Assembly: GCA_031459875.1 (NCBI GenBank)
Contig: JAVKHQ010000022.1
Location: 1 to 45,938, forward strand
DNA: 45,938 nt
Source: Candidatus Fervidifonticultor sextus
GTDB lineage: Bacteria; Sysuimicrobiota; Sysuimicrobiia; Sysuimicrobiales; Humicultoraceae
Direction of reading: 5' to 3'
Shown: in pieces, positions 129 to 23,461 of the stretch
Numbering within the stretch: the stretch's first letter is position 1
How the letters are laid out: every line of letters begins with the position of its first letter
The notes under the pieces: generated by a model
Databases searched by the model: none
What the model was told of the DNA's origin: nothing
Seen by the model: only the letters and a program-made list of their open reading frames with translations
Translations under genes and position numbers: made by a program

Positions 129-956
129 CTAGATCGGATCGCGGCCTTCGAAGAAAGCCAGTGCAACGGCCAGCGGGCCCACGATCCACGCGGCGAGCGC
201 GCCGAGCAGCAATCCTGCGGCGCCGGCGGCGCCCAGACGCGCCGTCAGGAAGCCGCCGACCGGACCGAGCACCTCCAGGGCGGGGTCCAGCAGCAGCAGC
301 GCGAGGATGCGGCCGACCTCCACGGGGTTGAGCAGCACGGCCGCCGCCAGCACCGGTGCGCCGGCGCCGGCGGCGGCACCGGCGGCGATCAGCACGAGGT
401 CGAAGGCCACCACGCTGCCGAACCAGACGGCCAGCGCCCACGCCAGGCCCTGCACCCGGCTGCGCACGGCGGCGGCGATGGCCACCCCGATCGACAGGTA
501 GACCGCGGCCACAGCCAGCGCGATCCCCAGGAAGGCCAGGTACTGCCCCCCGCCGCCCGCGCCCGTCGCGAGCCCGATCAGCACACCGGCCAGTCCAAAC
601 CCCAGCAGCGTCGCCAGGCCGATGGCGGCCAGGGCGCCGGCGAAGCGCGCCAGCAGCAGTTCGCTGCGACCGACGGGCTGCGCCAGAAAGCACTCCAGCA
701 GCCCGACCTCGCGGTCGCCGGCCAGGCCCGTAGCACCCAGCAGCAGCGCGATCAACGGCACCAGACCCAGACAGAGGTTAAGCAGGCTGGCCGTGGTCCG
801 CCCGTAGCCCTCCAGGCCCACGGCGCCGGCCAGGCGGAGGCCGAGCAGCGACAGCCCCAGGGCCAGGACCGCGAAGATGCCACCGTAGGCGAGCAGCCAG
901 CGGTGGCGCATGGCCTCGGCGAGTTCGTGGGCGACCAGCGCCCGCATGGGGCTCAT
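129..956 (-). CDS. nosY: NosY ABC transporter permease (copper-site maturation of NosZ)
   Basis: About 6 TM helices, 'DREVGLLECFLAQPVGRSELLLARFAG' and 'LLNPVEVGR' motifs; ATGA-coupled to nosF. Confidence 0.9.
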   Translation of the reverse strand: MSPMRALVAHELAEAMRHRWLLAYGGIFAVLALGLSLLGLRLAGAVGLEGYGRTTASLLNLCLGLVPLIALLLGATGLAGDREVGLLECFLAQPVGRSELLLARFAGALAAIGLATLLGFGLAGVLIGLATGAGGGGQYLAFLGIALAVAAVYLSIGVAIAAAVRSRVQGLAWALAVWFGSVVAFDLVLIAAGAAAGAGAPVLAAAVLLNPVEVGRILALLLLDPALEVLGPVGGFLTARLGAAGAAGLLLGALAAWIVGPLAVALAFFEGRDPI

Positions 957-1846
957 CGGGGCGTCACCGTGCCGGCCAGGACCTCGGGATCCACCGTGGG
1001 TTCCTCCACATGCACCTCCACCGGCCGGACACCGGCGGCGGCGACCGCCGCGAGGACCTCGAACGCGCCGCCGGCGCGGGTGGTCGCCGTGATGGAACCG
1101 GGCGTCTGTGCGATCCGCACGCCGGGCAGCGCGGTCAGGACGGACGTCAGCTCGGCACGTCCGACGCCGTTCACCCCGAACACGACCCGCTGCTGGACGG
1201 CTCCCCCAAGCCCTTCAGGCGGCCCGTCGTAGACGACCCGGCCGCGGTGGAGGACGAGCGCCCGTGTGGCGATCTGCAGCGGTTCGGCCGCCAGATGTGT
1301 GGCCAGCAGAACGGTCCGTCCCTTCCCGGCCGCCTCTTCGAGGTCCCGGTGTAGGGCCCGGCGGGCTGCCACATCCAGACTGGTCGCGGGTTCGTCGAAC
1401 AGCAGGACCGCAGGATCGGCCTGCAGAGCCACGGCCAGGGCCAGCCGCTGCCGCATGCCGCCCGACAGCGTCCTCACCGGCGCGCGGGCCGCCTCCTCCA
1501 GACCGACGCGGCCCAGCACCGCACCATCCCCACGGGTGCGGCCGCGCAGGCGCGCGAAAAGGTCCAGGACCTCGGTGCACGTCAGGTCGGCCGGCAGCGC
1601 CGGGCGCTGCGGGACGTAGCCGAGCAGGGCGCGGGCCCGCCGGCCGTCGCGGGCCACGTCGTGGCCGCCCACCGTGATCGTCCCGTCGAACCGCAGCAGT
1701 CCCAGGATGCAGCGCAACAGCGTGGTCTTGCCCGCGCCGTTGGAGCCCAGCAGCAGCACGAACGCCCCCTGGGGGACCTCAGCCGTGATCCCATCGAGCG
1801 CGGCCACCGAGCCGAAGCGCTTGCGCACATCGCGGAGGGCGATCAC
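953..1846 (-). CDS. nosF: NosF ABC transporter ATP-binding protein
   Basis: Walker A GSNGAGKT, signature LSGGMRQR, Walker B LLFDEP; lies between nosD and nosY. Confidence 0.9.
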   Translation of the reverse strand: MIALRDVRKRFGSVAALDGITAEVPQGAFVLLLGSNGAGKTTLLRCILGLLRFDGTITVGGHDVARDGRRARALLGYVPQRPALPADLTCTEVLDLFARLRGRTRGDGAVLGRVGLEEAARAPVRTLSGGMRQRLALAVALQADPAVLLFDEPATSLDVAARRALHRDLEEAAGKGRTVLLATHLAAEPLQIATRALVLHRGRVVYDGPPEGLGGAVQQRVVFGVNGVGRAELTSVLTALPGVRIAQTPGSITATTRAGGAFEVLAAVAAAGVRPVEVHVEEPTVDPEVLAGTVTPR

Positions 1847-3864
1847 GTCCGCCGCCTCCTAGCCAGCGCCGCGGCGGCCGCGCCGGAGGGGAGCCCCAGG
1901 GCGAGCCCCACCGCCAGCAGACCGGGCTGCGATCGGACCGGCGCGTCCGACCCCGGGACCGCCGGACCCCGTGCGTCGGCGGCCGGGATGCCCGAGGGCG
2001 GCCGCACCAGCGGGGCCGGATCTTCCACCGCCGGGTCGGTGCGCACCAGGGGCAGGATCCGCCCGGCCGCCTCCAGCGCCAGGTGGGCCGGGGTGAACAG
2101 GAACGCCCGCAGTGCCGGCGCGCGGCGTTCCAGGCCTTCCAGCAGGTCGGACCGCCGGTAGGGCACGTCACCGATCCCGTCGCCGTCGGCGTCGAAGCCG
2201 GTGTAGTCGCTCCAGTAGTTGCCGCGGCCGTCTGGCGCCCACCGGTTGGCGTCCGCCCGCACGGCGCCCCGCGCCTGCACCGGCTGGAGGTTCTCGACGA
2301 TCGCGTTCTCCGTGGCCTCAATCGCCGCGGTGCTCATCAGGCTGAAGGCGACCTCGTTGAACGCGATCAGGTTGCGCTCCACGCGAGCCCACCCGTCCAG
2401 CGTCGCGGGCGTGGCGTCGAACTCCAGCGCGATGCGGTTGCGCACGATGCGGTTCCCGCGCACCAGCAGCCGGTCCGCGTCCTTGAAGATCAGGCCGGCG
2501 CCGGCCGCGGCGGAGCGGCTGCCCTCGAAGGTGTTGTCCAGGAGGACGACGTCGCTGGAGTACATCACGGCCGCGCCCACGATGTTCTCCCGGAAGGTGT
2601 TGGCCCGGAAGGTGTTCCGGCGCGAGTACATGTAGTGGATCCCGTATCGGGAGCCGGTGACCGTGTTGCCCTCGACCAGGTTGTCGTCAGAGAACGAGAT
2701 GTAGATGCCGTCCTTGGCCCGCAGGACCCGGTTGGCCTGCAGGCGGGCGCGCTGGGCCTGCCACAGGTAGAGACCGTGGCCGCGTCGCTCCACGGGCAGG
2801 TCGGCGGTGGCAATGGTGTTCCCCTCGATGAGGGCGTCGCGGGCCCCAGCCAGGTAGATGCCGAAGAGGACCTCCCGGATGTCGTTGTGGCGCACCACGG
2901 CGCGGGCACCGCGCACCACCACGCCGGCGGCCTCTCGGCTGTACGCCAGGGCGCTGCCGCGGATGACGAACCCTTCCAGGCGGACATCGTCGCCGGCGAT
3001 CACGACGACGTCGCCGCGGCCGCCGCCGTCAATGGTGGGGCGGCCGATGCCGCGGAGCGTCACCGGCCTGGAGAGCACGAGCGGCCCCGGGTAGCGGCCG
3101 GGCGGCACCTCGATGGTCACCCCCGGCGGCGCCAGGGCGACGACCGCGGCCAGGTCGCCCGCACGGGCGGCGCGGGCCAGCGCATCTGCGCGTGCGGCCC
3201 CGCCCGGGCCGGCCAGGACGGGGAACGTGCCGACGAGCCCGAGCAGCAGCACCCCCGCCGTCACGGCGGCCGCGATCGGGAGACGGCGCGCGGCGGCCCA
3301 CGCGGAGGAACGGCGGACGCCCACCGTGAATGCCAGCGCGCTGAGGACCAACAGCACGAGCCCGGCCCCGGGCAGGGCCGTCACGTTGAAGTTCATCACC
3401 ACGGTCGGGCCGATCACCCGGGGGGTGAACGCCGGCAGCCGGAAGGCGGCCAGCGGGTCCAGGCTGTGCCCGAACTGGTACAGCCGCCACTGCAGGACGG
3501 CCAGACACATCGCCGGCAGCGCCCAGAGCCCCAGCAGGACCAGGGCCCACAGCCAGCGCCACGGGACCACAGCGGACAGCACCAGCCCCACGACCAGCAG
3601 CACCACCGCCGGGTAGAACAGGCGACCCTCGGGGAATTTGCTCGCGTCGATGGCAGCCATGCCGATGTAGTGGTTGAGCGCATTGAGTTCGTCCACATCG
3701 CCAGTGATCCCGCGGCCGTCAATCACCAGCCGCAGGCCGTTAGGGTACTGGGGCGCGTGGAGGGTCATCTTCCACAACGGGAGCGACGCCCCGAGCACCA
3801 GCAGCGCGGAGGCCAGCCCGATCGCGGCCAGCGCCCGGGTCCGCTCCGGGATCCGGGCGCTCAC
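1843..3864 (-). CDS. nosD: NosB-NosD fusion protein (membrane NosB domain + NosD beta-helix + C-terminal TM anchor)
   Basis: N-terminal 'PLWKMTLHAPQYPNGL...GDVDELNALNHYIGM' typical of clade II NosB; 'SRYGIHYMYS' and 'GNYWSDYTGFDADGDGIGDVPY' of NosD; GTG at 3864 overlaps the nosL stop (GTGA). Confidence 0.85.
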   Translation of the reverse strand: MSARIPERTRALAAIGLASALLVLGASLPLWKMTLHAPQYPNGLRLVIDGRGITGDVDELNALNHYIGMAAIDASKFPEGRLFYPAVVLLVVGLVLSAVVPWRWLWALVLLGLWALPAMCLAVLQWRLYQFGHSLDPLAAFRLPAFTPRVIGPTVVMNFNVTALPGAGLVLLVLSALAFTVGVRRSSAWAAARRLPIAAAVTAGVLLLGLVGTFPVLAGPGGAARADALARAARAGDLAAVVALAPPGVTIEVPPGRYPGPLVLSRPVTLRGIGRPTIDGGGRGDVVVIAGDDVRLEGFVIRGSALAYSREAAGVVVRGARAVVRHNDIREVLFGIYLAGARDALIEGNTIATADLPVERRGHGLYLWQAQRARLQANRVLRAKDGIYISFSDDNLVEGNTVTGSRYGIHYMYSRRNTFRANTFRENIVGAAVMYSSDVVLLDNTFEGSRSAAAGAGLIFKDADRLLVRGNRIVRNRIALEFDATPATLDGWARVERNLIAFNEVAFSLMSTAAIEATENAIVENLQPVQARGAVRADANRWAPDGRGNYWSDYTGFDADGDGIGDVPYRRSDLLEGLERRAPALRAFLFTPAHLALEAAGRILPLVRTDPAVEDPAPLVRPPSGIPAADARGPAVPGSDAPVRSQPGLLAVGLALGLPSGAAAAALARRRRT

Positions 3865-4337
3865 GGGTGCGTCTCCGGCATCGCCAGCAGCGCGGCCCAG
3901 CCGACTACCGGGGCCCCGGGGAAGGCCGCGCGGGCCGCCCCGGTGCTGGCGAAGGCCGCCAGCCCCGTGTTCATGGGCGTCCGGATCGCCTGGGACCGGA
4001 CGTAGATCGCGGCGGATGCCTCCAGCCACTGCTCCGTGGCCATGTCATGGACATAGCCGACGGCCGCCTGCGCCGCGAGCGCCCTGGCGGCGTGCGCGAC
4101 CATGCACCCGATGTCGTCGTAGCGGAACACCGTCTGGCCCTGGCGCGTGGCGGCCGCAAACCGCGGGTCGCTGATGAGCATGCCGCAGTGGTCGCAGCGG
4201 TCGCGGTCGTAGCGAATCGCCGGCGGCCCGCCCGCCGCGGGCGCCCGGCCCAGCAGCGCCCAGGCGGCGGGCGCCACCGCCGCGCCGCCCGCGGCCAGCG
4301 CCGCCAGGTGCAGGAACCTCCTCCGCGTCAACGTCAT
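3861..4337 (-). CDS. nosL: NosL copper chaperone with Tat-like leader
   Basis: CDHCGM, 'YDDIGCM' and 'TPMNTGL' NosL motifs; leader TRRRFLH; GGAGG RBS before ATG 4337. Confidence 0.88.
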   Translation of the reverse strand: MTLTRRRFLHLAALAAGGAAVAPAAWALLGRAPAAGGPPAIRYDRDRCDHCGMLISDPRFAAATRQGQTVFRYDDIGCMVAHAARALAAQAAVGYVHDMATEQWLEASAAIYVRSQAIRTPMNTGLAAFASTGAARAAFPGAPVVGWAALLAMPETHP

Positions 4338-4348
4338 GGGCGTCCTCC

Positions 4349-4373
4349 GGGGAGGGGCGGATGGCCCCTCCCC
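4349..4373 (-). terminator. 10-bp GC hairpin between nosZ and nosL (mRNA stabiliser or partial terminator)
   Basis: GGGGAGGGGC-GGATG-GCCCCTCCCC perfect inverted repeat; no U-tract. Confidence 0.5.
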
Positions 4374-4386
4374 TCCCATCCTCTAC

Positions 4387-6369
4387 CTAGGGCTCCACCA
4401 GCAGCCACCCCTGCATCTCCAGGTGCAGCGCCGAGCAGAACTCGGTGCAGTAGAAACTGAATGCCCCGGCCTTGGTGGCCACGAACTTCACGGTGACCGT
4501 CTCGCCGGGATCGATGCTCATCTGGACGTTGTACTCGGGGATCGCGAAGCCGTGCGTCGCGTCCCGGGTCTTCTCGGTGTTGGTGATGTGCAGGACGACG
4601 GTATCCCCCTTCTTCACGCGGATGATGTCGGGACGGAAGTTGCTGCGGGCCGCCGTCATCCACACCGTGACCACGTTGCCCGTGCGCTCGACCCGCTCCT
4701 TGGTGCGTTCAACCGCATGGGGGCTGCGCTGCATCGTGAGGATATCGGTGCCGGCAGGGTACACCTGCCAGGCCTTGATCTTATCGGCCTTGATGATCTG
4801 GGCGTAGTGGGGCTCGGCGTTGGGGACGGGCATGTCGTAGACCACCCGCATCTTGGACGCGGTCAGGTCGACCAGCTGGAAGTTCTGCGGGTGCAGCGGC
4901 CCCAGCACGGGATACCGGTCCACCGACCACTTGTTCAGCGCCACCAGGTAGCGGCCGTCGGGGCTCACGGTGTCGCCCTCCGCCGTGGCCAGGTGCCCGA
5001 TGTTGTAGTGCACCGACACCTTGTCCACCAGCTTCCAGGCCGCCTCGCCCTTGAAATAGGGCTCACCCAGCGTCCACTTGGCCACCGCGCTGTCTACGAA
5101 CAGACTGGTGTAGGCATAGCCCCGCTCGTCGAACTGGGTGTGCAGCGGCCCGTTCCCCACCGGCACGCGGGCGGCGATCACGGCGTCGAACTTCAGAATC
5201 GGCACGCCGAAGGGATCGGTCCCCTCGAAGTTCCTGGCGGCGATGGCGGCCTTGATCCTGTCGATGTCGTAGACGGTGGTGTGCGGATCCAGTTTCCCCG
5301 AGACGACGATGTACTTCCCGTTGGGCGCCACATCCACCCCGTGGGGGCTGCGCGGCTCCGGCGCGAAGTAGAGCAGCCCTTCCGCGATGGCCGTCTTGAG
5401 GGGGATGACCCGGATCCCGTTCCTCATCTCGAACTTCCCGGCCCGGACGACCTCCTCGGCCTTCTTCCAGTTGATGATGTGGAGGAAGTCGAAGTCCCTG
5501 GCGGAGGCGCCGGCCTCAATGGCCGGCCTGCCCTCCATGTTGCCGCCCGTGGCCATCTCGGTGTTGTAGGAGTTGATGAAGCCCCAGCCGTCGCTGGCGA
5601 GTTTCCCGGCGTCGGCCAGGTCCTGGTTGTAGGGCGGCAACTCGATCTGGAACGACCGGGCTAGGTCGATGCGCCCGGTCTGTTTGTCGACGGCCAGCCA
5701 GGCCGAGACGCCCCGGTAGCGCTCCTTGTACTGCTCCAGCGGCGCGTATCCCCCGCCCCAGACCATCGGGATCTTGCTGGAGACGTGCACGTAGTCGGTG
5801 TTGGGCGTGGCGAAGACCCCGCCGTGGTTGGTCTGCATGTTGGGGATCTTGAGGATCTGCTTGACGCGGAAGTCCCGCAGGTCAATCATGGCGATCCGGC
5901 CGTTGGCGCGGTCGTTGATGTACAACCAGCGGCCGTCGTACTCGCCACCGGTCTCCGACAAGGCGGGATGGTGGGTGTCGCCCCAGGAGAGCGGCACGCC
6001 GTTCCCGTTGGCCCCTTCCTCCAGGACCTTCTCCGACCAGTCCGCGCCGTAGCCGAAGCCCTGCCACGGCTCGGTGGTGAAGGTCGCGATGACCTTGAGG
6101 AGGCGCATGGACGGCAGGCCGATCACCAGCACCTGGCCGCCGTGGCCGCCGGACGAGAACATCAGGTACTCGTCCTGCCGGCCCGGCGGGACGAAACTCT
6201 GGACGGCGAAGGTCACCTCGTCCGGCTTGAGGCCGCGGGCCCCGGCGGCCCGCGCGGCCTCCTGCAGTCCGGCCAGGCCGGAGGCGGACCGGGCGCCGAC
6301 CAGGTAGGCGCCGGCGACCAGCACCGCGGCCAGGACCACCGCCACGACGGTGAGCGTCAAACGGGTCAT
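4387..6369 (-). CDS. nosZ: Clade II (Sec-pathway exported) nitrous oxide reductase, 660 aa
   Basis: WGDTHHP, SPHGVDV, GPLHTQF, NIGHL, EPHY CuZ motifs; CuA 'THGF...CTEFCSALHLEM'; hydrophobic leader without twin Arg; GGAGG RBS and ATGA overlap with the rrf2 stop. Confidence 0.96.
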   Translation of the reverse strand: MTRLTLTVVAVVLAAVLVAGAYLVGARSASGLAGLQEAARAAGARGLKPDEVTFAVQSFVPPGRQDEYLMFSSGGHGGQVLVIGLPSMRLLKVIATFTTEPWQGFGYGADWSEKVLEEGANGNGVPLSWGDTHHPALSETGGEYDGRWLYINDRANGRIAMIDLRDFRVKQILKIPNMQTNHGGVFATPNTDYVHVSSKIPMVWGGGYAPLEQYKERYRGVSAWLAVDKQTGRIDLARSFQIELPPYNQDLADAGKLASDGWGFINSYNTEMATGGNMEGRPAIEAGASARDFDFLHIINWKKAEEVVRAGKFEMRNGIRVIPLKTAIAEGLLYFAPEPRSPHGVDVAPNGKYIVVSGKLDPHTTVYDIDRIKAAIAARNFEGTDPFGVPILKFDAVIAARVPVGNGPLHTQFDERGYAYTSLFVDSAVAKWTLGEPYFKGEAAWKLVDKVSVHYNIGHLATAEGDTVSPDGRYLVALNKWSVDRYPVLGPLHPQNFQLVDLTASKMRVVYDMPVPNAEPHYAQIIKADKIKAWQVYPAGTDILTMQRSPHAVERTKERVERTGNVVTVWMTAARSNFRPDIIRVKKGDTVVLHITNTEKTRDATHGFAIPEYNVQMSIDPGETVTVKFVATKAGAFSFYCTEFCSALHLEMQGWLLVEP

Positions 6370-6824
6370 GCGGATTCCTCCCTTCGGGTGGATGTGGGAT
6401 CTGCCACAGTGACGGTGCGCCTCGGCAACCGCCGGACGCCCGCCGACAGGTCTGCAACGGTCACGCTGTCCAGGAGCCGTTCGATCTCGCGCTGGATCGT
6501 GCCCAGCGCCGCCCTGACCGGGCAGGGCTGGGCGCAGGGGCAGTCGTCGTACACGATGCACCGCGAGATGGCCAGCGGGCCCTCGATGGCGTCGATGACC
6601 TGGCGCAGGGTGATCTGCGCCGCGGGCCTGGCCAGGCGCACCCCGCCGCGGGCGCCGCGGGTCGTCCGCACGATTCCCCCGCGCACCAACTGCTGCACGA
6701 TCTTGCCGGCCTGCGCTGGCGGGATGCTGCGGCGCGCGGCCAGGGCCCCGGTCTGGGTCGGCCCCTCCACCGCCAGGTCCAGGACGGCCCGCAGCGCCAG
6801 CTGGGCCGCGCGGCTCAGTTCCAT
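6366..6824 (-). CDS. Rrf2-family (NsrR/IscR-like) Fe-S transcriptional regulator
   Basis: 'RGARGGVRLARPAAQITLRQVIDAIEG' wing motif; C-x5-C-x5-C cluster ligands (CIVYDDCPCAQPC). Confidence 0.9.
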   Translation of the reverse strand: MELSRAAQLALRAVLDLAVEGPTQTGALAARRSIPPAQAGKIVQQLVRGGIVRTTRGARGGVRLARPAAQITLRQVIDAIEGPLAISRCIVYDDCPCAQPCPVRAALGTIQREIERLLDSVTVADLSAGVRRLPRRTVTVADPTSTRREESA

Positions 6825-6826
6825 GA

Positions 6827-6850
6827 AAACCGGAGAATCCCCATAGGTTT
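6827..6850. promoter_or_regulatory. Putative Rrf2 operator (24-bp imperfect dyad AAACCGGAGAATCCCCATAGGTTT)
   Basis: AT-rich dyad between the predicted TSS and the rrf2 start; resembles the dyad at 17603-17626. Confidence 0.45.
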
Positions 6851-6860
6851 GTCGCCTTTG

Positions 6861-6930
6861 ACCGTAGGGGATGGCGCGCGGGCAGACCATCGGGAGGTGA
6901 CCTGATTTCGCATCGGGGAGACACCCGATG
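6861..6930 (-). promoter_or_regulatory. nos operon promoter: -10 TACGGT (6866-6861), box ATCAGG-TCACCT-CCCGAT (6906-6889), second box CATCGGG-N6-CCCGATG (6911-6930)
   Basis: Two tandem inverted repeats, the second perfect; 22-nt spacer to the -10. Confidence 0.7.
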
Positions 6931-6955
6931 CCGGCCTGGACGGGCTGAACGGGAA

Positions 6956-6977
6956 GGGGCGGGGTCTCCCCCGCCCC
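6956..6977 (-). terminator. GC hairpin after the cupredoxin gene
   Basis: GGGGCGGGG-TCTC-CCCCGCCCC, 9-bp stem, only a short U-tract. Confidence 0.4.
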
Positions 6978-7001
6978 CTGGGCTCGGACCCTGCGGGCGT
7001 C

Positions 7002-7421
7002 CTACGGCTCGACTTTGAGCTCGCCCACCATCTCGGGGTGGTAGGTGCAGACCATCTTGTAGGTCCCCGGCTTGTCGATCTTCACCTTGAACTTGCTCTC
7101 CTGGCCGGCGTTGACGGCGATGTCGGAGGCGAAGTCCTGCCCGACCTGGTCCTTGGCCTGGATGATGAGATTGTGGACGGTCGTGCCCTCGTTGTCGAAT
7201 TCGAACTCGTACTCCCGACCGGCCTTGATGGTGATGGTCGCGGGCTCATAGAGGTTGTCTTTCCCGACGATCTTGATCTCCGTGGTCCCCGCCGGGGATG
7301 CGGGAGCCGCACCGGTCGGCTGCTCGGGCTGCGGTTGAGGTGGCTGGGCCGACCGGCCGCCGCACCCGGCGGCGAGCACCGCGACCAGCAAGACGGCGAC
7401 GAGCCACACTGCGCTGCGCAT
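7002..7421 (-). CDS. Cupredoxin (type 1 copper) lipoprotein
   Basis: Lipobox LAAG-C, Pro-rich linker, 'VHNL...CTYHPEM' T1 Cu ligands; AGGAGG RBS. Confidence 0.85.
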   Translation of the reverse strand: MRSAVWLVAVLLVAVLAAGCGGRSAQPPQPQPEQPTGAAPASPAGTTEIKIVGKDNLYEPATITIKAGREYEFEFDNEGTTVHNLIIQAKDQVGQDFASDIAVNAGQESKFKVKIDKPGTYKMVCTYHPEMVGELKVEP

Positions 7422-7549
7422 TCGAATGCTTCCTCCTCCTCGTGTGGTGTAACCCCTCTCCGGCGGGTTACCCAGGCAAGGGTAGCGCGACATCCCTCAC
7501 GTGGCAAGTGGGAAAATCGGCGGGTGCATCGGGCGGGTGCGGTGCGGCC

Positions 7550-9313: not shown

Positions 9314-9774
9314 TTGGTCACGATGAGGTAGCCGCGCATCTCGTCGTGGTCGGGGGTGCAGTGTTTCTTGCCGGGATCGTAGGGGAGCGCGCAGCGGTAC
9401 TCGAAGACGCCGACCTTGTCGGCGACAAAGGTCACCCGTTCGCTCTCACCGGCGTTGAGAATTTTGGTCTTGATCCCGTAGCCCGGCAACTCGAACTGAT
9501 GCGCGAACTCATCGGGGTTGGCGATCACCAGGTCCACGGTATCGCCCTCGCGCACCACCATCATCGTGGGATACCAGCGGTGGGCGAAGACGCCCTGGCC
9601 GGAGAAGGTGGCGACGACCATCGAGAGGGCCACCCGGGACGGCGCCGGACGCGCCGTCCCGGCCTCCGGGCCCGCTGCCGGCTGCCGGGAGGTGTAGACA
9701 ACCAGGCTGACGGCCAGCGCCACCACCGAGACGGCCAGCGCCATGTAGCCAAGCCCGTTGCCCCGACGGGTCAT
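9310..9774 (-). CDS. Exported cupredoxin with atypical CuA-like loop (C-x10-C-x3-H-x2-M)
   Basis: N-terminal TM, 'AHQFELPGY', 'CALPYDPGKKHCTPDHDEM'; GGAGG RBS. Confidence 0.8.
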   Translation of the reverse strand: MTRRGNGLGYMALAVSVVALAVSLVVYTSRQPAAGPEAGTARPAPSRVALSMVVATFSGQGVFAHRWYPTMMVVREGDTVDLVIANPDEFAHQFELPGYGIKTKILNAGESERVTFVADKVGVFEYRCALPYDPGKKHCTPDHDEMRGYLIVTK

Positions 9775-9893: not shown

Positions 9894-10772
9894 TCAGCGG
9901 GCGGGGCCAAACTGCAGCGGCCACCAGGTCAGCGTGATGCTCTTCTGACCGTTGCGCTGGCGCTCGCGGCCGTCCCAGACGGCGAAGTTGACGAGCGTGC
10001 GCTCCCCGGGTCTGAACTGGACGTCAGCCTCATCCGGCGTGGCCAGCGGCCGCGCCATCACGACGGTCCACCGGCCGGCCCGCCAGGCCCCGAAGCCGAC
10101 CACGTCCTGGCGGGGTTGCGAGGTGACGGTGCCAAACCCCCAGGCCGCAAGGTCTTCGACCGCGCTCGACCGCCTGGGCCTGGAGAGCAGGTTGCCGGCC
10201 GCCGTGCCGGCGTTGAAGCCCTCGCGGTCCTTCGCCGACTTCGCCAGGTGGACGTCATAGTAGTAGTCCACGAACATGTGGGGGTACGCGACCCGCAGGT
10301 CGCGGCCGCGCGTGACCTCGGCCTGCCAGGCAGCCTTCCACTGCCAGATGTTGACCGGCCGGGTGCGGTCTCCCATCAGGGGGCTCGCCAGCGGGGGCGA
10401 GGTACTCAATGGGAACTGCAGGGCCACCGCGTCGGTGAACTCGGTCTGGCGCAGGGGGAGCCGGTCGGGCGTGGGATCGGTCCAGGTGAGCTCGAAGTAG
10501 GCCATCTTGCCGTCGTGCAGCGCCCGGATGCGGATCTCCTTCACGGTCCCGCCGCCGAAGGGCTTGATGAGCGTCTGGGCCACCAGCGGGATCGTGCGGG
10601 CCTCAGCCGACCGGAAGACCGCCTCAGCGGCAGTCGGGTCGAGCGGCACCTTCGCCCTTGTGAAGGTCACCACGATCGGCGGTTGCTGCATCTGACCCAC
10701 CGCGGGGAGCACGGCCGCCGCGAGCGCCAGCACCGCGGTCAGGCACCCCACCGGGAGCCGGCCAATCCTCAT
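9894..10772 (-). CDS. nxrC: Heme b gamma subunit (ethylbenzene dehydrogenase EbdC-like), NxrC candidate
   Basis: Signal peptide; 'DAVALQFP...LMGD...VNIWQWKA...GFGT...FAVWDG...RNGQK' carrying the Met/Lys heme ligands; ATGA-coupled in the nxr operon. Confidence 0.85.
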   Translation of the reverse strand: MRIGRLPVGCLTAVLALAAAVLPAVGQMQQPPIVVTFTRAKVPLDPTAAEAVFRSAEARTIPLVAQTLIKPFGGGTVKEIRIRALHDGKMAYFELTWTDPTPDRLPLRQTEFTDAVALQFPLSTSPPLASPLMGDRTRPVNIWQWKAAWQAEVTRGRDLRVAYPHMFVDYYYDVHLAKSAKDREGFNAGTAAGNLLSRPRRSSAVEDLAAWGFGTVTSQPRQDVVGFGAWRAGRWTVVMARPLATPDEADVQFRPGERTLVNFAVWDGRERQRNGQKSITLTWWPLQFGPAR

Positions 10773-11722
10773 AGGAGCCCTCCTGCGTCCGTCATCACCG
10801 CGTACCCTTCCACGCACCGCTCACACGCACCCGACTCGGGCGACCAGTCGGGGAAGTCGGCGGCAATGCACGCTACAACCGCCTCCGGGACCACCCCGGC
10901 CCACGCGAACGTCGGGAAGCCGCACAGGGGACAGGGCGCGCCCAGGATCGGCTCAGGCGCGCGGTCCGCAGCAGCAGAGCCCGAGGGGCTCTCCAACGCT
11001 GCCACAGCGCCCGCCCAGGCAGCCAGCAAGGCAGGGTCGTCCGCGAACTGGAGGAGATCCGTATAGGTCGGCCGCGCCCCATCCCAGAGGCGGTCCACCA
11101 CGATCCCGGCGGCCTGGCGGCCAAACCGGGGAAACAGGCGCAGGAAGGCCGCCAGGCGTTCCTCCCGGGTGGCCAGGGGCTCCAGCCCCGCGCGGGCCGT
11201 GCGACCGTCGACCGCGCAGTCCCACAGGAGAGCGAAGCGGTCGCTGTGCAGGCGACGCGCCGCCCGGGCGGAAGCCTCGGTGGCGCCGTACGCGAAAGCC
11301 GGATCCAGCACGTCGAGCACGTGGCCGAGTTCATGGTGGAGGACCCGAATCAGGTCCGGCGTGCCGAACCGCTCGGGAAGCAGCCGCAGCCCCAGGGTCC
11401 TGCGGTCTGGGCTGAGGTCCGCCGCTTCCTCGGCGTGGCTCCACGCACGCGCTACCAGGATCGCCTCGACGGCCAGCCCGACCCGCTCCACGGCCTGGCG
11501 GATCGGCTGCGCGAAGCCCAGGTCCTCGAACAGGCGCGCATGCAGCGCACAGAACGCGGCATGCCGGGATGCGGCATCCGCACAGCGGGCATAGATGGCG
11601 TCGGCCGCCTTCCGGTAGCGCTCGGCGAGCGTGCCGTCGCCCTCGCGCCGGCGCCGGTCGATCTCCCGCCCGACGACCGCGTCCAGCAGGTCGGGGGCAC
11701 AGCGCACGGACGGCGTCGTCAT
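10769..11722 (-). CDS. Hypothetical protein with HExxH motif and C-terminal CxxC...CxxC
   Basis: 'HHELGHVLD', 'CPLCGFPT...ACERC'; ATGA overlaps with both neighbours. Confidence 0.75.
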   Translation of the reverse strand: MTTPSVRCAPDLLDAVVGREIDRRRREGDGTLAERYRKAADAIYARCADAASRHAAFCALHARLFEDLGFAQPIRQAVERVGLAVEAILVARAWSHAEEAADLSPDRRTLGLRLLPERFGTPDLIRVLHHELGHVLDVLDPAFAYGATEASARAARRLHSDRFALLWDCAVDGRTARAGLEPLATREERLAAFLRLFPRFGRQAAGIVVDRLWDGARPTYTDLLQFADDPALLAAWAGAVAALESPSGSAAADRAPEPILGAPCPLCGFPTFAWAGVVPEAVVACIAADFPDWSPESGACERCVEGYAVMTDAGGLL

Positions 11723-12471
11723 GGCGGCTCCAGCAGGCAGCCTCCCGCCCCGCAGGGCAGGGGCGCCGCGTCGGGTGCCTCTCCCCCACCCGACGGTGCG
11801 AGGTCGACCTCAGGGACGGGCCCGGCGCCCAGGGCCTCTGCCTCCGCCGTGACCCAGGCGGCCAGGGCCGAGGCCAGACTCCGGTACGGGCCGCCCGCCC
11901 GCTGCGCCACCAGACGGGCAAACGACGGCACCCAACGCGCCAGGTGGTCCCGCAGGAACGCCCGCTGGGCGTCCTGCAGCAGCGCGACCTCGCCCGGCCC
12001 GTGATGGACGCGCGCGTAGGCTTCCCGGTAGGCCAGCACGTGCATGAACTCCAGTTCCAGGCTCACGTGATCGGGCCGCTCGCGGGCCCCCTCGTCCACC
12101 TCGACGCCAAAGGCCCGGTAGAACCCGGCCACATCGGCCAGGCACTGCGCCTGCGGGAAGATCCCGCCTGGGATATACTGCGCCTCGTAGAGCGGACAGG
12201 TCATGCCCACCTGGTGCCCGAAGGTCCGCTGGTAGTCGTCGGATAGCGCGGACGGATCCGCGCGCTGGCAGGCGTCCATCGCCGCCTCAAGCGCCGCCGC
12301 CGCTCCCCCGGCCACCGTCCGGACCGCCTCCAGGGATGCCTGCCACCGGGCGGGATCCACCGCCGCCAGGACCTCCTCCGGCGGACGGAGGGCGACCGAG
12401 AGGAAACGGTAGACGAGGCTGCGGGCCATCGCCCGCTCGGTCGCGTCCGCCTCCGCCCGCACCACCGGCAT
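11719..12471 (-). CDS. TorD/DmsD-family molybdoenzyme chaperone
   Basis: 'CPLYEAQY...DVAGFYRAFG...ERPDHVSLELEFM...FLRDHLARW'. Confidence 0.9.
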   Translation of the reverse strand: MPVVRAEADATERAMARSLVYRFLSVALRPPEEVLAAVDPARWQASLEAVRTVAGGAAAALEAAMDACQRADPSALSDDYQRTFGHQVGMTCPLYEAQYIPGGIFPQAQCLADVAGFYRAFGVEVDEGARERPDHVSLELEFMHVLAYREAYARVHHGPGEVALLQDAQRAFLRDHLARWVPSFARLVAQRAGGPYRSLASALAAWVTAEAEALGAGPVPEVDLAPSGGGEAPDAAPLPCGAGGCLLEPP

Positions 12472-12484
12472 CGGGGGTCCCGGC

Positions 12485-13730
<1,246 letters not shown>

Positions 13731-13738
<8 letters not shown>

Positions 13739-14033
13739 CGCCCTCGCCTCCCCCGCGGGGGCCGCCCCCGGTCACCCTCCACACTCCCCAGGTCGCCGCC
13801 ACCTCCGCGATCAGCCCCCGGACGGCCTCCTCCCCGCGGTCCCGGTAGATGGCGTAAAGCGCCCGATAGAAGGGGGTGCGGAAGAGCCGGAGCAGCCCTT
13901 CCTCGTCCCAGCCCACGCGCAGGTACTCTTCCACCAGGCAGCGCGCCATCTCGTCGGCGGCCGGGTCGCCCGCGTCCACGATCACCCCGACCAGGGCCAT
14001 AGGGTCGTCGGGCTCGAAGGCCTTCTCCGTCAC
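13731..14033 (-). CDS. Small acidic hypothetical protein between nxrA and nxrB
   Basis: 100 aa, protein-like composition, fills the gap exactly and overlaps the nxrB start; 'EPDDPMALVGV...FRTPFY'. Confidence 0.75.
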
Positions 14034-14037
14034 CGCG

Positions 14038-17000
14038 TTAGCCTCTCGTGATCCTGACCAGCGCTCCGGCGAGATAGCGCCTCATGAACTCCCGCTCCCG
14101 GCCGGGCGTGTTGCCCGTACGGGCCGGCTCCCACAGGCCCCGGCCCCCGATGCCGCCGTCCTCGGCCTTGGTGATCTTCACCAGGGTCTCCTTGGGCACG
14201 GTGTTGACGGCGTGGTTGTCGGCCTCACCGCCGAAGATGAAGGCCATCGCGCCCTTGGCCTTGTGGAACAGCGTGTCGGTCTGGTGCATCGGCATGTGCC
14301 AGTTGCGGGTGACCGACTGCTGGCTCCCGTAGCGGAAGTTGGCCTGGTAGCCGGTGTCCGCCGACTGGGCCAGGCCGTCGCGCCGCGTCTGGTGCGCCCT
14401 CACCGACTTCTCGGTGGCGATGGCCGGCGCGTGCTTCATCATCACCACGTTGTAGGGATAGGCGGGATTGTACCGGGCACGCACCATGCACCGGGCGACG
14501 CGGTAGAAGGGGTCGTTGGGCTTCCAGCCCAGGTACGGCCGGTCCGCCGCGTAGGCGTCCACGTACACGTAGTCGCCGTCGTTGATGCCCAGGTCCCGCG
14601 CAGCCTGCGGGTTGATGTGGAGCTGGTGCTCGCCGACCCCGGGAGCGCGTTTGTCCAGTCGATAGGGGTCGCCGAAGTTGGAATCCCAGATCAGGTTCCA
14701 GTCGGTGCTGCTCCACGACGAGTGCACGCGGTGCCGGGTTTTGGGGGTCAGGCAGTAGAACCGGTAGCCCCGCTCCCACAGCGGGTTCGTCGTGGTCTTC
14801 ACCTGCGTCCAGGGCCGCTTGACGTTGCGCACCGTGCGCTGGTCCCAGTGAAGGGCATCCGGAGGGATGCCGTAGTCCTCGGGCCGGATCAGCGGGTTGC
14901 GGCTGACGATGACGTTGGGCAGGTATGGCGTGGCCTCCGGGCCTTCCCGGTGGACGACGAAGTTCTCGCCGTACTCGATGGCCTCGGGGATGTCGCAGTA
15001 GGCGTTGAGCCGGCCGGTGTCAGTATAGAACGGCTCGCTGTCGTGGATCTGCTCGTAGAACGGCACCCGGGGATAGGTGCGGAAGAGCATCAGCGCGGCC
15101 CCGGGCTCGCCGTACGTGCCCTTGACGATGTCCTCGAAGCGGTACCCCACGGTCGACGTCGAACTGTCCAGAATCCGCTGAATGTAGACCTCGGGCCGGC
15201 CTTCGAGGACAAACCTGTAGTAGTCGCGGAACCGGGGGTCGCCGGTCTTCACCGAGAGCTTGGCCGCGACCTCGGCGATGATCGTGGCGTCGTCCTTCGT
15301 GTCGAACAGCGGCCGGATCCCGCCCTTCCAGATCTGCAGGAAGGGGTTGCTGCACGACGCCGTGAGTTCCCAGTTCTCGAACTCCACCCAGGTGTTGGCC
15401 GGAAGGATGATGTCCGAGTACTCCGCGGTGGCCGTCATCTCCACATCCTGGTTGATGATCAGCTCGATCCGGGGCCCCACGTTCTTGATGACCCCGTAGG
15501 CCCACTTGGCGTTGTTGATGAGGTTGACGTTGTTGAACCACATGACCTTGGTGGGGGTGGGCATGTGGGTCGCTCCGGTGAAGACCTTGCGGCCCCGCTT
15601 GGGAGTGTTCACGATCAGCGGGAGATCACCGTGATCCCAGTAGGCGGGCTCCTCGTCCTTCAGGTACTTCCTGACCTTGATGGTTTTCCCGTGGGCGGCG
15701 GGATCCAGCGCCGGGTTGAAGGGGTCCTCAAAAAGCCACCCCGTGATCCCCGGGCCGGTCCAGGGCGAGCCCTGGAAGACGCCGGCCTTGTAGTTGCCGG
15801 CCCACGTGTGACAGCCGGCGCCGGGCTTCCCGATGTTGCCGGTCAGCATCAGGGGCAGGTAGAAGGCGCGGTTGGCCAGGGTCGCGTGGAACCAGTGGTT
15901 GATCCCCTCGCCGATGTGGATGGCCACCGGTTTGATGGTGGCGATGTCGCGGGCCAGCCGCCGGATCATCGCCTTGGGGACCTGGGTGATCTCCGTGACG
16001 GTGTCCAGGTCGTAGTCCCGGAGGTGGTCGCGATACGCTTCCCACAGGGTCAGGCAGGCGACCTCGGTCCCGTCCACCAGGCGCACCTTCCCGCGCCAGC
16101 CCAGGGCGGGGGTGATCCCTTTCTGCACCAGGCGCGCCCCTACGTCGTCGCGCGTGACCGCGCGCAGGCGGTTCGTCGTCTGGTCGAACACCACGAAGTC
16201 GCCCAACCGGGCGTACTGGTCGGGCGTGAGGTTCTGGCGGGTGAAGGACGGACCGTCGGGGGCCAGCCCCGGCGTGTAGTTGGGGAAGACCTCGGAAGCC
16301 CGCAGGCGCTTCAGCGTGTCTGTCCTGATGATGAGGGGGAAGTCGGTGAACTGCCGGACGAACGTCTCGTCGTACCACCCCCGGTCCATCATCAGCCGCG
16401 TGATCCCCAAAAACAGCGCCGCATCGGTCTGCGGCCGGATGGGCATCCAGTAGTCGGCCTTGACGGCGGGCGGGCTGTACTCGGGGGTGACGACGGCGAT
16501 TTTCGCCCCCCGCTCCATCAGTTCGTTAAAGAAGTGGCTCTCTGGCATCTTGTTCTCGATGAGGTTCTTGCCGACCTGGATGTGCAGCTTGGCATGGCGC
16601 AGTTCATTGAAGTCCACGTCCGAGGTCTGCAGGCCGTGCACGAAGGGCATCCCGGGCGCCTGGTCGCCGTGCCAGGTGTAGTTGCTCCACTTGCGCGCGC
16701 CCAGGGCCTGGTCGGGCCCCACACCCCGGATGTGGGCGTCCAGCAGCGCCATCATGTTGGCGGCGCGCCACAGCCCGTACTTCCCGATGACGCCCAGCAA
16801 CCCCATGCCGCCGCGGAACTTGAACGTCCGCACGCCGGCCCCGTGCATCGCCTCGACCATCTCGGGCGGATAGCCCTGGTCGAGCAGGCGCCTGGCGCCA
16901 TCCGGTCCGCTGTATCGGCGGGCGATCGCCATGAAGGCCGACGCGATGTACGAGTAGACTTCGTCCCAGGGAACGCGGACGAACGTGTCCTGGCCCCGGC

Positions 17001-17553
17001 TGTCGAACCGGTACCTGGCGCGCAACTCGTCGGTCAGCTCCGGGTAGCCGTCGTCCGCCCACTGCTTCCAACCCCGGCGGACCATGGGGTACTTCAGACG
17101 GTACGGCCCGTAGACGCGCCGGTGGAAGGTGTACCCTTTGAGGCAGCCCCGTGGATTCCAGGCGTGCGTGGCCCGGTTGCCGTACAGATCGGCGTAGCGG
17201 TCCGCATCGTAGTTCTGCTCGATGCGCATGATCACGCCGTTGCGCACGAACGCCCGCATCCGGCAGTGGTGGGTGTCGTTGGGAGAGCACACGAAGGTGA
17301 AGCTGCGGTCGTAGCGGTACTGGTCCCGGTAGACCTTCTCCCATCCGCGGTCCGGATAGGCCTCAAGCGGATTGTCGACGACCGAGAGCGGGCGGAGCAG
17401 GTTGAGGGGCAGTGCCTGGGAGAGCCACGCGCCGCCGACGAGCGTGCCGGAGACCCGCAGGAACTCGCGACGGCGCACAGCCGCGGGGGACGGAGAGTCC
17501 GGTCTGGCTGGGGTGGGGCAGAGGCCGGCGGCGGCGTTCCCGTGCTCGTCCAC
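14038..17553 (-). CDS. nxrA: Periplasmic nitrite oxidoreductase/nitrate reductase alpha subunit (type II DMSO reductase family), about 1171 aa
   Basis: Tat motif RRREFL; 'CSPNDTHHCR...WNPRGCLKG' FS0 motif with Asp; 'WSNYTWHGDQAPG' Mo-ligand Asp; 'TPKTRHRVHS'; GGAGGT RBS before GTG 17553. Confidence 0.93.
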   Translation of the reverse strand: MDEHGNAAAGLCPTPARPDSPSPAAVRRREFLRVSGTLVGGAWLSQALPLNLLRPLSVVDNPLEAYPDRGWEKVYRDQYRYDRSFTFVCSPNDTHHCRMRAFVRNGVIMRIEQNYDADRYADLYGNRATHAWNPRGCLKGYTFHRRVYGPYRLKYPMVRRGWKQWADDGYPELTDELRARYRFDSRGQDTFVRVPWDEVYSYIASAFMAIARRYSGPDGARRLLDQGYPPEMVEAMHGAGVRTFKFRGGMGLLGVIGKYGLWRAANMMALLDAHIRGVGPDQALGARKWSNYTWHGDQAPGMPFVHGLQTSDVDFNELRHAKLHIQVGKNLIENKMPESHFFNELMERGAKIAVVTPEYSPPAVKADYWMPIRPQTDAALFLGITRLMMDRGWYDETFVRQFTDFPLIIRTDTLKRLRASEVFPNYTPGLAPDGPSFTRQNLTPDQYARLGDFVVFDQTTNRLRAVTRDDVGARLVQKGITPALGWRGKVRLVDGTEVACLTLWEAYRDHLRDYDLDTVTEITQVPKAMIRRLARDIATIKPVAIHIGEGINHWFHATLANRAFYLPLMLTGNIGKPGAGCHTWAGNYKAGVFQGSPWTGPGITGWLFEDPFNPALDPAAHGKTIKVRKYLKDEEPAYWDHGDLPLIVNTPKRGRKVFTGATHMPTPTKVMWFNNVNLINNAKWAYGVIKNVGPRIELIINQDVEMTATAEYSDIILPANTWVEFENWELTASCSNPFLQIWKGGIRPLFDTKDDATIIAEVAAKLSVKTGDPRFRDYYRFVLEGRPEVYIQRILDSSTSTVGYRFEDIVKGTYGEPGAALMLFRTYPRVPFYEQIHDSEPFYTDTGRLNAYCDIPEAIEYGENFVVHREGPEATPYLPNVIVSRNPLIRPEDYGIPPDALHWDQRTVRNVKRPWTQVKTTTNPLWERGYRFYCLTPKTRHRVHSSWSSTDWNLIWDSNFGDPYRLDKRAPGVGEHQLHINPQAARDLGINDGDYVYVDAYAADRPYLGWKPNDPFYRVARCMVRARYNPAYPYNVVMMKHAPAIATEKSVRAHQTRRDGLAQSADTGYQANFRYGSQQSVTRNWHMPMHQTDTLFHKAKGAMAFIFGGEADNHAVNTVPKETLVKITKAEDGGIGGRGLWEPARTGNTPGREREFMRRYLAGALVRITRG

Positions 17554-17602
17554 GGTGACCTCCCGAAACCGGTCGGGGCCGGCTACATCACCATGCCTCA
17601 CC

Positions 17603-17626
17603 AATTCGGATATTTTCGTCCGAATA
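17603..17626. promoter_or_regulatory. Putative repressor operator (ATTCGGA-N8-TCCGAAT) in the nxrA leader
   Basis: Perfect 7-bp inverted repeat (17604-17625) in an AT-rich patch downstream of the -10. Confidence 0.55.
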
Positions 17627-17643
17627 GTCCGAAGGTTTATCCC

Positions 17644-17689
17644 ATCCTACCGGGGGATGGGCCCCTCGGCAATCGGTTCGCTACCTGAT
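17644..17689 (-). promoter_or_regulatory. nxr promoter: box ATCAGG-TAGCGA-ACCGAT (17689-17672) plus -10 TAGGAT (17649-17644)
   Basis: 22-nt spacer, identical to the nos promoter; both boxes begin AAATCAGGT. Confidence 0.7.
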
Positions 17690-23456: not shown

Positions 23457-23461
23457 CGTCC

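What the first reader, a model, noticed from the sequence alone, without database searches (positions are those of the whole stretch)
129..17689. Periplasmic Nitrospira/anammox-type NXR co-located and apparently co-regulated with clade II N2O reductase
Seen: complete nxrABC with chaperone and a complete nos operon lie on one strand, separated only by three cupredoxins and a dehydrogenase, with matching promoters. No nirK/nirS/nor, nosR, nosGH or nos-linked cytochrome c genes occur in the window. Known: the N2O/N2 couple is far more positive than NO3-/NO2-, and this enzyme family is reversible. Inference: either nitrate and N2O respiration by a truncated denitrifier, or nitrite oxidation coupled to N2O reduction through copper carriers, a metabolism I do not know to be described.
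Basis: partly seen in the sequence, partly recalled or inferred. Interest (0 to 1): 0.85.

Follow-up and report, generated by a model that had tools for sequence, protein, structure and literature searches.

The report
Co-regulated nitrate and N2O respiration island
A bacterium of an uncultured phylum keeps a nitrite/nitrate-converting enzyme and a nitrous-oxide-destroying enzyme side by side under shared control sites, but the rest of its genome suggests it uses them to breathe nitrate (on to ammonium) and N2O, not to run a new nitrite-to-N2O metabolism.

Summary
An intact Kuenenia/Nitrospira-type nxr operon and a clade II nos operon lie on one strand. The promoters do match, in two elements. 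One is a genome-wide box that also precedes CODH/ACS, hydrogenase and Sdh/Frd operons. The other, modelled only on relatives' nos promoters, scores best genome-wide at nxrA.

The bold reading is poorly supported. The genome (Sysuimicrobiota, 96% complete) encodes NrfAH, the Wood-Ljungdahl pathway, hydrogenases and Rieske/cytochrome b complexes. It has no other nitrate reductase and no NirK/NirS/Nor. Both enzymes face outward, so direct nitrite-to-N2O electron flow would move no net charge. The cupredoxins travel without nxr, and two relatives with linked nxr-nos lack the cup1/cup2 pair.

Most likely (0.75) this is nitrate ammonification plus N2O respiration under low oxygen, as in Thermogutta (NXR-clade enzyme plus NrfAH). 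Nitrospira-like NxrA and nosZ in this phylum are already published. The scan noted similar nxr-nos islands on other DNA (e1-3330569, e1-7000829). Not found in my searches: the shared putative Rrf2 operator and a nos cluster without NosR, NosGH or cytochrome c.

The parts
17672..17689 (-). Promoter element 1 upstream of nxrA (ATCRGG-N7-CCGAT inverted repeat, 22 nt before a TAGGAT -10-like hexamer); putative activator box, regulator unidentified
17602..17627 (-). Promoter element 2 upstream of nxrA, downstream of the -10-like hexamer; putative Rrf2 operator (inference)
   Evidence: best genome-wide hit (23.5 bits) of a matrix built from 9 relatives' rrf2-nos promoters; alignment
14038..17553 (-). 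nxrA, Mo-bis-PGD catalytic subunit with twin-arginine signal; FS0 motif CSPNDTHHC and WHGD motif. Start GTG at 17553 chosen from the GGAGG site and the equivalent ATG in G003
13731..14033 (-). 100-aa hypothetical protein, recurrent in NXR-type clusters
   Evidence: no family hit
12485..13738 (-). nxrB, Fe-S subunit
11719..12471 (-). TorD/NarJ-type chaperone
10769..11722 (-). 317-aa hypothetical protein with HExxH and two C-terminal CxxC; recurrent in NXR-type clusters, including anammox ones
9894..10772 (-). nxrC, haem b (EB_dh) subunit with N-terminal signal
9310..9774 (-). cup1, membrane-anchored cupredoxin, H...C-x10-C-x3-H-x2-M (CuA-like ligand set, stretched loop)
8828..9298 (-). cup2, paralogue of cup1 with Gln in place of the Met
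7550..8776 (-). Zn-dependent medium-chain dehydrogenase, substrate unknown
7002..7421 (-). cup3, cupredoxin with lipoprotein-like signal (LAAGC) and type-1-like H...C-x2-H-x2-M
6889..6929 (-). Two copies of promoter element 1 upstream of rrf2-nos (6889-6906, 6912-6929)
6826..6851 (-). Promoter element 2 directly before the rrf2 start codon
   Evidence: (5th genome-wide, 17.6 bits)
6366..6824 (-).
4387..6369 (-). nosZ, clade II (Sec), CuZ His motifs and CuA motif present, no C-terminal haem c
3861..4337 (-). nosL
1843..3864 (-). nosD with an N-terminal membrane domain that I read as NosB (label recalled, no model hit; the two parts are separate genes in G007, G040 and G058)
953..1846 (-). nosF, ABC ATPase
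129..956 (-). nosY, ABC permease
17681..20040 (-). moeA-mobB fusion and mobA, molybdenum cofactor synthesis; mobA abuts cup1 in congeners that lack nxr here
21969..26593 (-). Second Mo enzyme (Arr/Psr-like, TAT) with Fe-S and NrfD subunits, upstream part of the same island

Best explanation
This is a low-oxygen terminal-reductase island of a facultatively anaerobic Sysuimicrobiota bacterium. Under low O2, an unidentified activator (element 1) switches on donor genes (hydrogenase, CODH/ACS) and acceptor genes together (inferred). The nos-encoded Rrf2 protein probably adds a second control shared by the nxr and nos promoters (inferred). Electrons from H2, CO, formate or organic substrates reach the quinone pool. 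They then pass through a Rieske/cytochrome b or Fe-S/NrfD complex to outward-facing copper carriers, which feed NXR working as a nitrate reductase and NosZ in parallel (inferred). Energy is conserved upstream of both enzymes. Nitrite is reduced to ammonium by NrfAH encoded on another contig. N2O comes from outside or as a by-product, since no NirK/NirS/Nor was found. Shown: the genes, their families, the promoter elements and the gene inventory. Not shown: enzyme direction, carrier partners and regulator identity.
For: NrfA has CxxCK plus 4 CxxCH, scores 469 bits on PF02335, matches solved NrfA at 1e-77, and has NrfH next to it. nrfA and nosZ are in 6 of 6 genomes of the genus. The six Molybdopterin-family proteins found are NXR, an Arr/Psr-like enzyme, a Ttr-like enzyme, two Fdh-type proteins and NuoG, so NXR is the only nitrate-reductase candidate. 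The genome has a Wood-Ljungdahl cluster, group 3b/3c-type hydrogenases, CoxL, two Rieske/cyt b loci and complex I, and no RuBisCO. Element 1 also precedes cooC-CODH/ACS, sdh/frd and genes of the hydrogenase region. In G012, G020 and G026 a hydrogenase small/large pair follows nos within about 9 kb, and Ttr- or Psr-like Mo enzymes precede nxr (G012 hydrogenase and G012/G026 Mo enzymes scanned). G020 and G026 have NirK, and G012 has qNor with a fragment in G020. Precedent: Thermogutta terrifontis has an NXR-clade enzyme (PMC10732223, PMC12758564 passages) plus NrfAH and a bc complex (PMC5673643 passage). Kuenenia NXR works in both directions (PMC8387239 passages). nrfA plus nosZ is a known pairing (PMC10653820 abstract).
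Against: The nrfAH promoter carries no element 1 hit among the 46 listed, and nrfAH is unlinked. No quinol dehydrogenase, Rieske protein or cytochrome is encoded inside the nxr operon, so the electron path into NxrC is inferred. The three linked relatives in genus g8 lack nrfA, and G012 (97% complete) shows neither NirK over the cut-off nor NirS (the NirS control rang nowhere at that threshold), so ammonification does not generalise. An A-type oxidase with CuA is present and could accept nitrite-derived electrons. The phylum paper reads these enzymes as possible nitrite oxidases (PMC11604079).
Confidence: 0.75

Rival explanations
1. Aerobic or microaerobic nitrite oxidation as an auxiliary energy source: NXR passes electrons through cupredoxins to the CuA-containing aa3-type oxidase, while nos serves separately under anoxia. 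The enzyme may also switch direction with oxygen.
For: NXR clade and FS0 Cys/Asp motif. One A-type oxidase with CuA and no fused cytochrome c. cup1/cup2 pairs lie near cox genes in 4 of 15 loci. Suggested for this family in PMC11604079.
Against: The nxr promoter shares element 1 with CODH/ACS and hydrogenase-region genes and element 2 with nos. There is no RuBisCO, and the carbon-fixation route found is the low-potential Wood-Ljungdahl pathway. No bd oxidase proper (only a 53-bit partial hit) and no second haem-copper oxidase were found.
Confidence: 0.14
2. One reading: nitrite oxidation coupled to N2O reduction through the encoded copper carriers as an energy metabolism.
For: Strongly exergonic, about -180 kJ per 2 electrons (with +0.42 V from PMC8387239 and +1.35 V from PMC13685413). 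nxr and nos are adjacent in 4 of the 7 phylum genomes that hold both. Both promoter elements are shared. No NapH/NosH/NosR-type domain was found in the genome. cup1 folds like nitrosocyanin and the NosZ CuA domain.
Against: Both enzymes are exported (TAT and Sec signals). The two protons released by NXR are consumed by NosZ on the same side, and nitrite-level electrons cannot reduce menaquinone, so no coupling site lies between them (inference from standard bioenergetics). cup1/cup2 occur in 21 of 94 genomes and were not found in G003, G012 and G020, which hold both nxr and nos. G012 and G020 have no cupredoxin between nxrC and rrf2. The cup-adh-cup-rrf2-nos block exists without nxr in G001, G004 and G005. 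21 of 28 nosZ genomes lack this nxr type, and 5 of 12 nxr genomes (68-91% complete) show no nosZ. NrfAH would compete for nitrite.
Confidence: 0.04
3. The adjacency is only clustering of Mo/Cu anaerobic-respiration modules at a rearrangement hot spot. The enzymes share no special regulation, or NXR acts on another oxyanion such as chlorate or selenate.
For: The slot after mobA holds this nxr in G000, a 42%-identical paralogous enzyme in G002, and nothing in G001, G004 and G005. The genes are apart in G003, G007 and G058. Only 1 of 77 NxrA loci (36 with at least 8 kb downstream) shows nosZ.
Against: G003 keeps both promoter elements at nxrA although nos is unlinked. Element 2 ranks first at nxrA genome-wide. 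Catalytic-region motifs match Kuenenia NXR.
Confidence: 0.07

Closest known systems
Kuenenia stuttgartiensis NXR-ABC (PDB 7b04; PMC8387239) and the periplasmic NXR of Nitrospira/Nitrospina
   Same: A, B, C subunits and chaperone; twin-arginine export; Cys/Asp FS0 motif; about 65% NxrA identity to Brocadia loci; the 317-aa accessory gene is also in anammox clusters.
   Different: No haem-c protein (NXR-T-like) in the cluster. The host has NrfAH, NosZ and the Wood-Ljungdahl pathway, and no NO-forming nitrite reductase was found.
Thermogutta terrifontis nitrate respiration (NXR-clade enzyme + bc complex + NrfAH; PMC5673643, PMC10732223)
   Same: NXR-clade molybdoenzyme, NrfAH, Rieske/cyt b complex and aa3 oxidase in one facultative anaerobe.
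   Different: There the bc genes flank the reductase. Here they are unlinked, and a nos operon and cupredoxins are the neighbours. I did not compare the Thermogutta sequence directly.
Non-denitrifying clade II N2O reducers with NrfA (Bacillus sp. DNRA2, PMC10653820; Wolinella, cited in PMC13685413)
   Same: Sec-type NosZ with nosLDFY, nrfA present, no nirK/nirS/nor found.
   Different: No nosGH or nos-linked cytochrome c, which PMC13685413 gives as typical of clade II. Rrf2 heads the operon, cupredoxins lie upstream, and the nitrate reductase is NXR-type.
Sysuimicrobiota NxrA/NarG and nosZ as reported in PMC11604079
   Same: Same phylum, probably Humicultoraceae (CODH/ACS is reported only there); Nitrospira/anammox-related NxrA and nosZ already noted.
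   Different: The passages I read do not mention adjacency, shared promoters or nrfA (0 occurrences in the main text), and they lean towards nitrite oxidation.

Membership tests
Periplasmic NXR clade (Nitrospira/Nitrospina/anammox type) | Alpha subunit far closer to anammox NXR-A than to NarG, Pcr or Ebd | tested here: met
   1802 bits to 7b04 vs 188 (4ydd) and 132 (NarG). In a tree of 74 sequences it nests among the 62-72% relatives that include Brocadia, away from the 42% paralogues. No Nitrospira sequence was in the tree.
Periplasmic NXR clade (Nitrospira/Nitrospina/anammox type) | Twin-arginine export, FS0 Cys/Asp motif, soluble haem b NxrC, TorD-type chaperone | tested here: met
   RRREFL, CSPNDTHHC and NPRGC; NxrC E 3e-57 to 7b04_C; chaperone
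Periplasmic NXR clade (Nitrospira/Nitrospina/anammox type) | Oxidises nitrite in vivo | not testable with these tools
   The enzyme is bidirectional (PMC8387239); direction was not assignable from sequence in PMC10732223
Clade II NosZ | Sec-type NosZ above the curated cut-off, CuA and CuZ ligands, nosDFYL | tested here: met
Clade II NosZ | nosGH and c-type cytochromes in the cluster (typical, per PMC13685413) | tested here: not met
   None in the window; PF12801 not found in the genome, control rang in 6 of 14; the genome is 96% complete
Nitrate ammonifier (DNRA) with N2O reductase | NrfA with CxxCK haem 1 and NrfH | tested here: met
   below the two NCBIfam equivalog cut-offs (369 vs 595, 285 vs 692) but 469 bits on Pfam
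Nitrate ammonifier (DNRA) with N2O reductase | Growth with nitrate to ammonium and with N2O | not testable with these tools
   no culture data
Complete denitrifier | NirK or NirS, and Nor | tested here: not met
   Best NirK-model hits 79 and 61 bits vs cut-off 296, both two-domain multicopper-like with HxH motifs; cd1 search gave one weak beta-propeller-type hit, E 1e-4; one haem-copper enzyme, A-type
Chemolithoautotrophic nitrite oxidiser | CBB or rTCA carbon fixation | tested here: inconclusive
   RuBisCO not found; Wood-Ljungdahl present; rTCA citrate cleavage and the glycine route not tested
CuA proteins (cup1/cup2) | Binuclear Cu bridged by two Cys in C-x3-C-x3-H-x2-M | tested here: inconclusive
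   H92, C128, C139, H143 and an extra H65 are invariant in 40 of 40 sequences, but the spacing is C-x10-C. The model (pLDDT 90) matches nitrosocyanin and the NosZ CuA domain. Metal content and Cys geometry were not tested.

The most novel reading that the evidence does not exclude
NXR and NosZ drain one extracytoplasmic copper-carrier pool, so the organism oxidises nitrite to nitrate with N2O as oxidant in anoxia. This could be a growth-supporting metabolism, if a coupling step exists (for example in the NosB-like membrane domain), or a non-conserving side reaction. The shared putative Rrf2 operator would coordinate the two enzymes. My searches found no paper describing this. Probability is about 0.04 as an energy metabolism and about 0.12 as measurable turnover without energy gain.
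Probability: 0.05. Interest if true: 0.9.

Novelty: new variant of a known kind. Interest (0 to 1): 0.38.

Why it matters
If the best reading holds, a Nitrospira-like nxrA here marks nitrate respiration in an H2/CO-using, nitrogen-retaining N2O sink. That would reverse the published suggestion for this phylum and is a caution against using nxrA as a nitrification marker. The island offers a tractable test of how direction is set in NXR-type enzymes. It also points to an undescribed regulon (two promoter elements, an Rrf2 protein) and a copper-based electron supply to clade II NosZ. If the novel reading held, it would supply an oxygen-free oxidant for nitrite oxidation, an open question in low-oxygen waters (PMC8114937 passages discuss iodate and internal O2, not N2O).

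Tried and rejected
Direct-repeat search of 1-28000 did not list the promoter match among its 20 largest families. Plain local alignment of the two upstream regions was not above background. The sigma-70 consensus scan found neither promoter, and no terminator-like site between nxrC and cup3 except one at 7774-7758 inside the dehydrogenase gene. The first element-2 matrix was built on one sequence through an offset error and was redone with nine. The idea that contig C67 continues the window was dropped: relatives continue after nosY with genes matching contig C29. The two NirK-like hits were rejected as NirK. The weak COX1 hit on C67 (E 3e-4) was rejected as Nor. The C13 molybdoenzyme proved to be FdhF/YdeP-type. 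Complex prediction for cup1 with cup2, without alignments, gave no answer. Sequencing runs: no RNA holder listed, so no reads were laid. The first tree script failed at rooting. In the repeat, the outgroup was 2 sequences, and loci without a full-length frame were left out (74 rows). The order of events (nxr inserted or lost at the mobA-cup1 slot) was not polarised. The supplement of PMC11604079 (Fig. S19, Table S7 with transcripts) could not be read and may bear on adjacency, nrfA and expression.


Full report
What is there. The window is a whole contig (C15) of a 3.05-Mb genome, 96% complete with 0.2% contamination. On the minus strand it reads: an Arr/Psr-like Mo enzyme with Fe-S and NrfD subunits, a ferredoxin-like ORF, moeA-mobB, mobA, nxrA, a 100-aa ORF, nxrB, chaperone, a 317-aa ORF, nxrC, cup1, cup2, Zn-dehydrogenase, cup3, rrf2, nosZ, nosL, nosB-like/nosD fusion, nosF, nosY. 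NxrA aligns end to end with Kuenenia NXR-A (1802 bits; next structure 188), and NxrC with NXR-C. NosZ is clade II with its Cu ligands. The best NxrA relatives are 82-88% identical; the one named to genus is Ca. Fervidifonticultor. Together with CODH/ACS, reported only in Humicultoraceae (PMC11604079), this places the genome in Sysuimicrobiota, probably that family (inference).

Promoters. Fifteen upstream regions (11 rrf2-nos, 4 nxrA) align on an inverted repeat ATCRGG-N7-CCGAT, then a TA-starting hexamer about 22 nt later, then a second AT-rich element ending TCCGnTT. A matrix for element 1 was built from 13 sites of 9 relatives' rrf2 promoters. It finds 46 hits in the genome, mostly intergenic at the top. 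These lie upstream of a second rrf2 with a multicopper protein, sdh/frd, a haem-synthesis operon, cooC-CODH/ACS, nxrA (8th), hydrogenase-region genes, rrf2-nos (10th) and pntA. This looks like a global low-oxygen regulon (inference; the regulator is unidentified). A matrix for element 2 from the same 9 promoters ranks nxrA first of 75 hits and rrf2 fifth. An rrf2 homologue lies within 6.5 kb upstream of nxrA in 15 of the 77 NxrA loci from other genomes, so an Rrf2 operator is the natural guess. G003 keeps both elements at nxrA although its nos is unlinked. Co-regulation is therefore well supported. It does not tell direction.

The rest of the genome. NrfA (CxxCK plus four CxxCH) and NrfH are on contig C9. 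No NirK reaches the cut-off, the cd1 search gave one weak hit, and the only haem-copper enzyme is an A-type oxidase with CuA. The six Molybdopterin-family proteins include no NarG or NapA, so NXR is the only candidate to supply NrfAH from nitrate. The genome has CooS, AcsBCDE, AcsV, Fhs, FolD and MetF, group 3b/3c-type hydrogenases, formate dehydrogenases, CoxL above cut-off, complex I and two Rieske/cyt b loci. It shows no RuBisCO and no NapH/NosH-type domain. Against my reading, the nrfAH promoter has no element 1 hit.

Relatives. Among 94 phylum genomes, nxrB of this type (at least 76% identical) is in 12, nosZ in 28, and both in 7 (nine more genomes carry a 57-60% paralogue and were not counted as this type). 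The two operons are adjacent in G000, G012, G026 and G020 (contigs split inside rrf2). They are apart in G003, G007 and G058 (the G007 nxr contig ends inside the operon). The named locus L001 shows the same order and is not counted separately. Kin are not independent and several genomes are incomplete. In the window's genus, nosZ and nrfA are in 6 of 6 genomes and this nxr in 2 of 6. In G001, G004 and G005, mobA is followed directly by cup1-cup2, then adh, cup3, rrf2 and nos. G012 and G020 link nxrC to rrf2-nos through a radical SAM gene with no cupredoxin. In genus g8 a hydrogenase follows nos, nrfA and ACS were not found, G020 and G026 have NirK, and G012 has qNor with a fragment in G020. 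The cup1/cup2 pair occurs in 21 of 94 genomes. In 15 further loci read, it sat near Fe-S/NrfD genes in 9 and cox genes in 4, with no nxr or full nosZ in the stretch. The copper proteins thus look like general carriers, not an NXR-NosZ wire. The NxrA tree groups the phylum's sequences (support 1.0) among relatives from many phyla. Whether the linkage was gained or lost was not polarised.

Mechanism. Nitrite to N2O is worth about -180 kJ per two electrons. But NXR releases two protons outside and NosZ consumes two outside. Electrons at +0.42 V cannot enter a menaquinone-level complex (-0.07 V, recalled), so a direct copper wire crosses no coupling site. The CuA entry site of NosZ is near +0.26 V (recalled), an uphill but not prohibitive step, so turnover without energy gain stays possible. 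The economical reading puts both enzymes as parallel sinks downstream of the quinone pool, with H2, CO, formate or organics as donors and NrfAH finishing nitrate reduction (0.75). Aerobic nitrite oxidation through the aa3-type oxidase is the main rival (0.14).

What is known. PMC11604079 (passages and section 12; supplement not readable) already reports Nitrospira/anammox-related NxrA and nosZ in this family, suggests nitrite oxidation, and concludes from transcripts that hydrogen and sulfide are the donors. PMC11962464 (passages) reports nrfAH, nirK/S and nosZ in the phylum. PMC8387239 (passages) shows NXR is bidirectional. PMC10732223 and PMC12758564 (passages) place Thermogutta near or in the NXR clade, and PMC5673643 (passage) gives it NrfAH and a bc complex. 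PMC10653820 (abstract) covers nrfA plus nosZ. PMC13685413 (passages) gives potentials and the usual clade II gene set. PMC8114937, PMC9828761, PMC9950131 and PMC13608581 (passages) mention no N2O-coupled nitrite oxidation in what I saw. Searches for that coupling or for nxr-nos adjacency returned 0, 9, 1 and 1 papers. I opened 3 of these 11 and saw the rest only as listings. The library lacks most subscription papers. Earlier scan notes describe similar islands in two other phyla with the same verdict (unchecked AI notes, seen after my reading was recorded).

Verdict. It is most likely a known physiology (nitrate ammonification or partial denitrification plus N2O respiration) in a variant layout. 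Interest 0.38; the novel case has probability 0.05 and would merit 0.9.

Noticed in passing
window 8828-9774: cup1/cup2 are a tandem pair in nearly all matches, with a CuA-like ligand set, a C-x10-C loop and an extra invariant His; cup2 of this genus has Gln for the axial Met. They lie near Fe-S/NrfD modules in 9 of 15 loci.
   Followed up: partly
window 10769-11722 and 13731-14033: Two uncharacterised genes recur in NXR-type clusters across phyla, including anammox; the larger has HExxH and a C-terminal four-Cys motif and no Pfam family.
   Followed up: partly
genome-wide; window 30900-30917 and 37998-38015: The ATCRG-N8-CYGAT box marks a probable global low-oxygen regulon, with further window sites before a sensor kinase and an ArsR-like gene; the regulator is unidentified.
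   Followed up: partly
window 21969-26593: TAT-exported Arr/Psr-like molybdoenzyme with Fe-S and NrfD subunits, below all curated cut-offs (best ArrA 439 of 1600 bits); substrate unknown.
   Followed up: no
window 30982-32751: Rhodanese next to a 10-haem cytochrome ORF; G001 shows a further one-haem ORF just upstream, in line with the earlier scan note on a UGA read-through.
   Followed up: no
L142:821-5683 (G000:C4:26821-31683): Cytochrome c, Rieske protein and two different cytochromes b, the second with an Fe-S domain, followed by an MvhD-like gene; a candidate donor complex for the copper carriers.
   Followed up: no
L152:280-1866 (G000:C67:83280-84866): A second Rrf2 is in frame with a two-domain multicopper protein and carries the top-scoring element 1 site; in G012, G020 and G026 the multicopper homologue lies a few kb after nosY.
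   Followed up: partly
L139:4471-10698 and L138:7526-13808: Congeners G002 and G004 carry a divergent (42%) NXR-like enzyme preceded by a cupredoxin; in G002 it follows moeA-mobA, as nxr does in the window.
   Followed up: partly
L149:10785-13694 (G000:C49): The formate dehydrogenase alpha frame has one in-frame TGA, possibly selenocysteine.
   Followed up: no
window 27348-27869: A fourth cupredoxin-like ORF lies downstream of a NarL-type response regulator and sensor kinase pair.
   Followed up: no
window 40079-45938: HdrC/D-like, ETF alpha/beta and HdrA-like genes on the plus strand, possibly an electron-bifurcating module.
   Followed up: no
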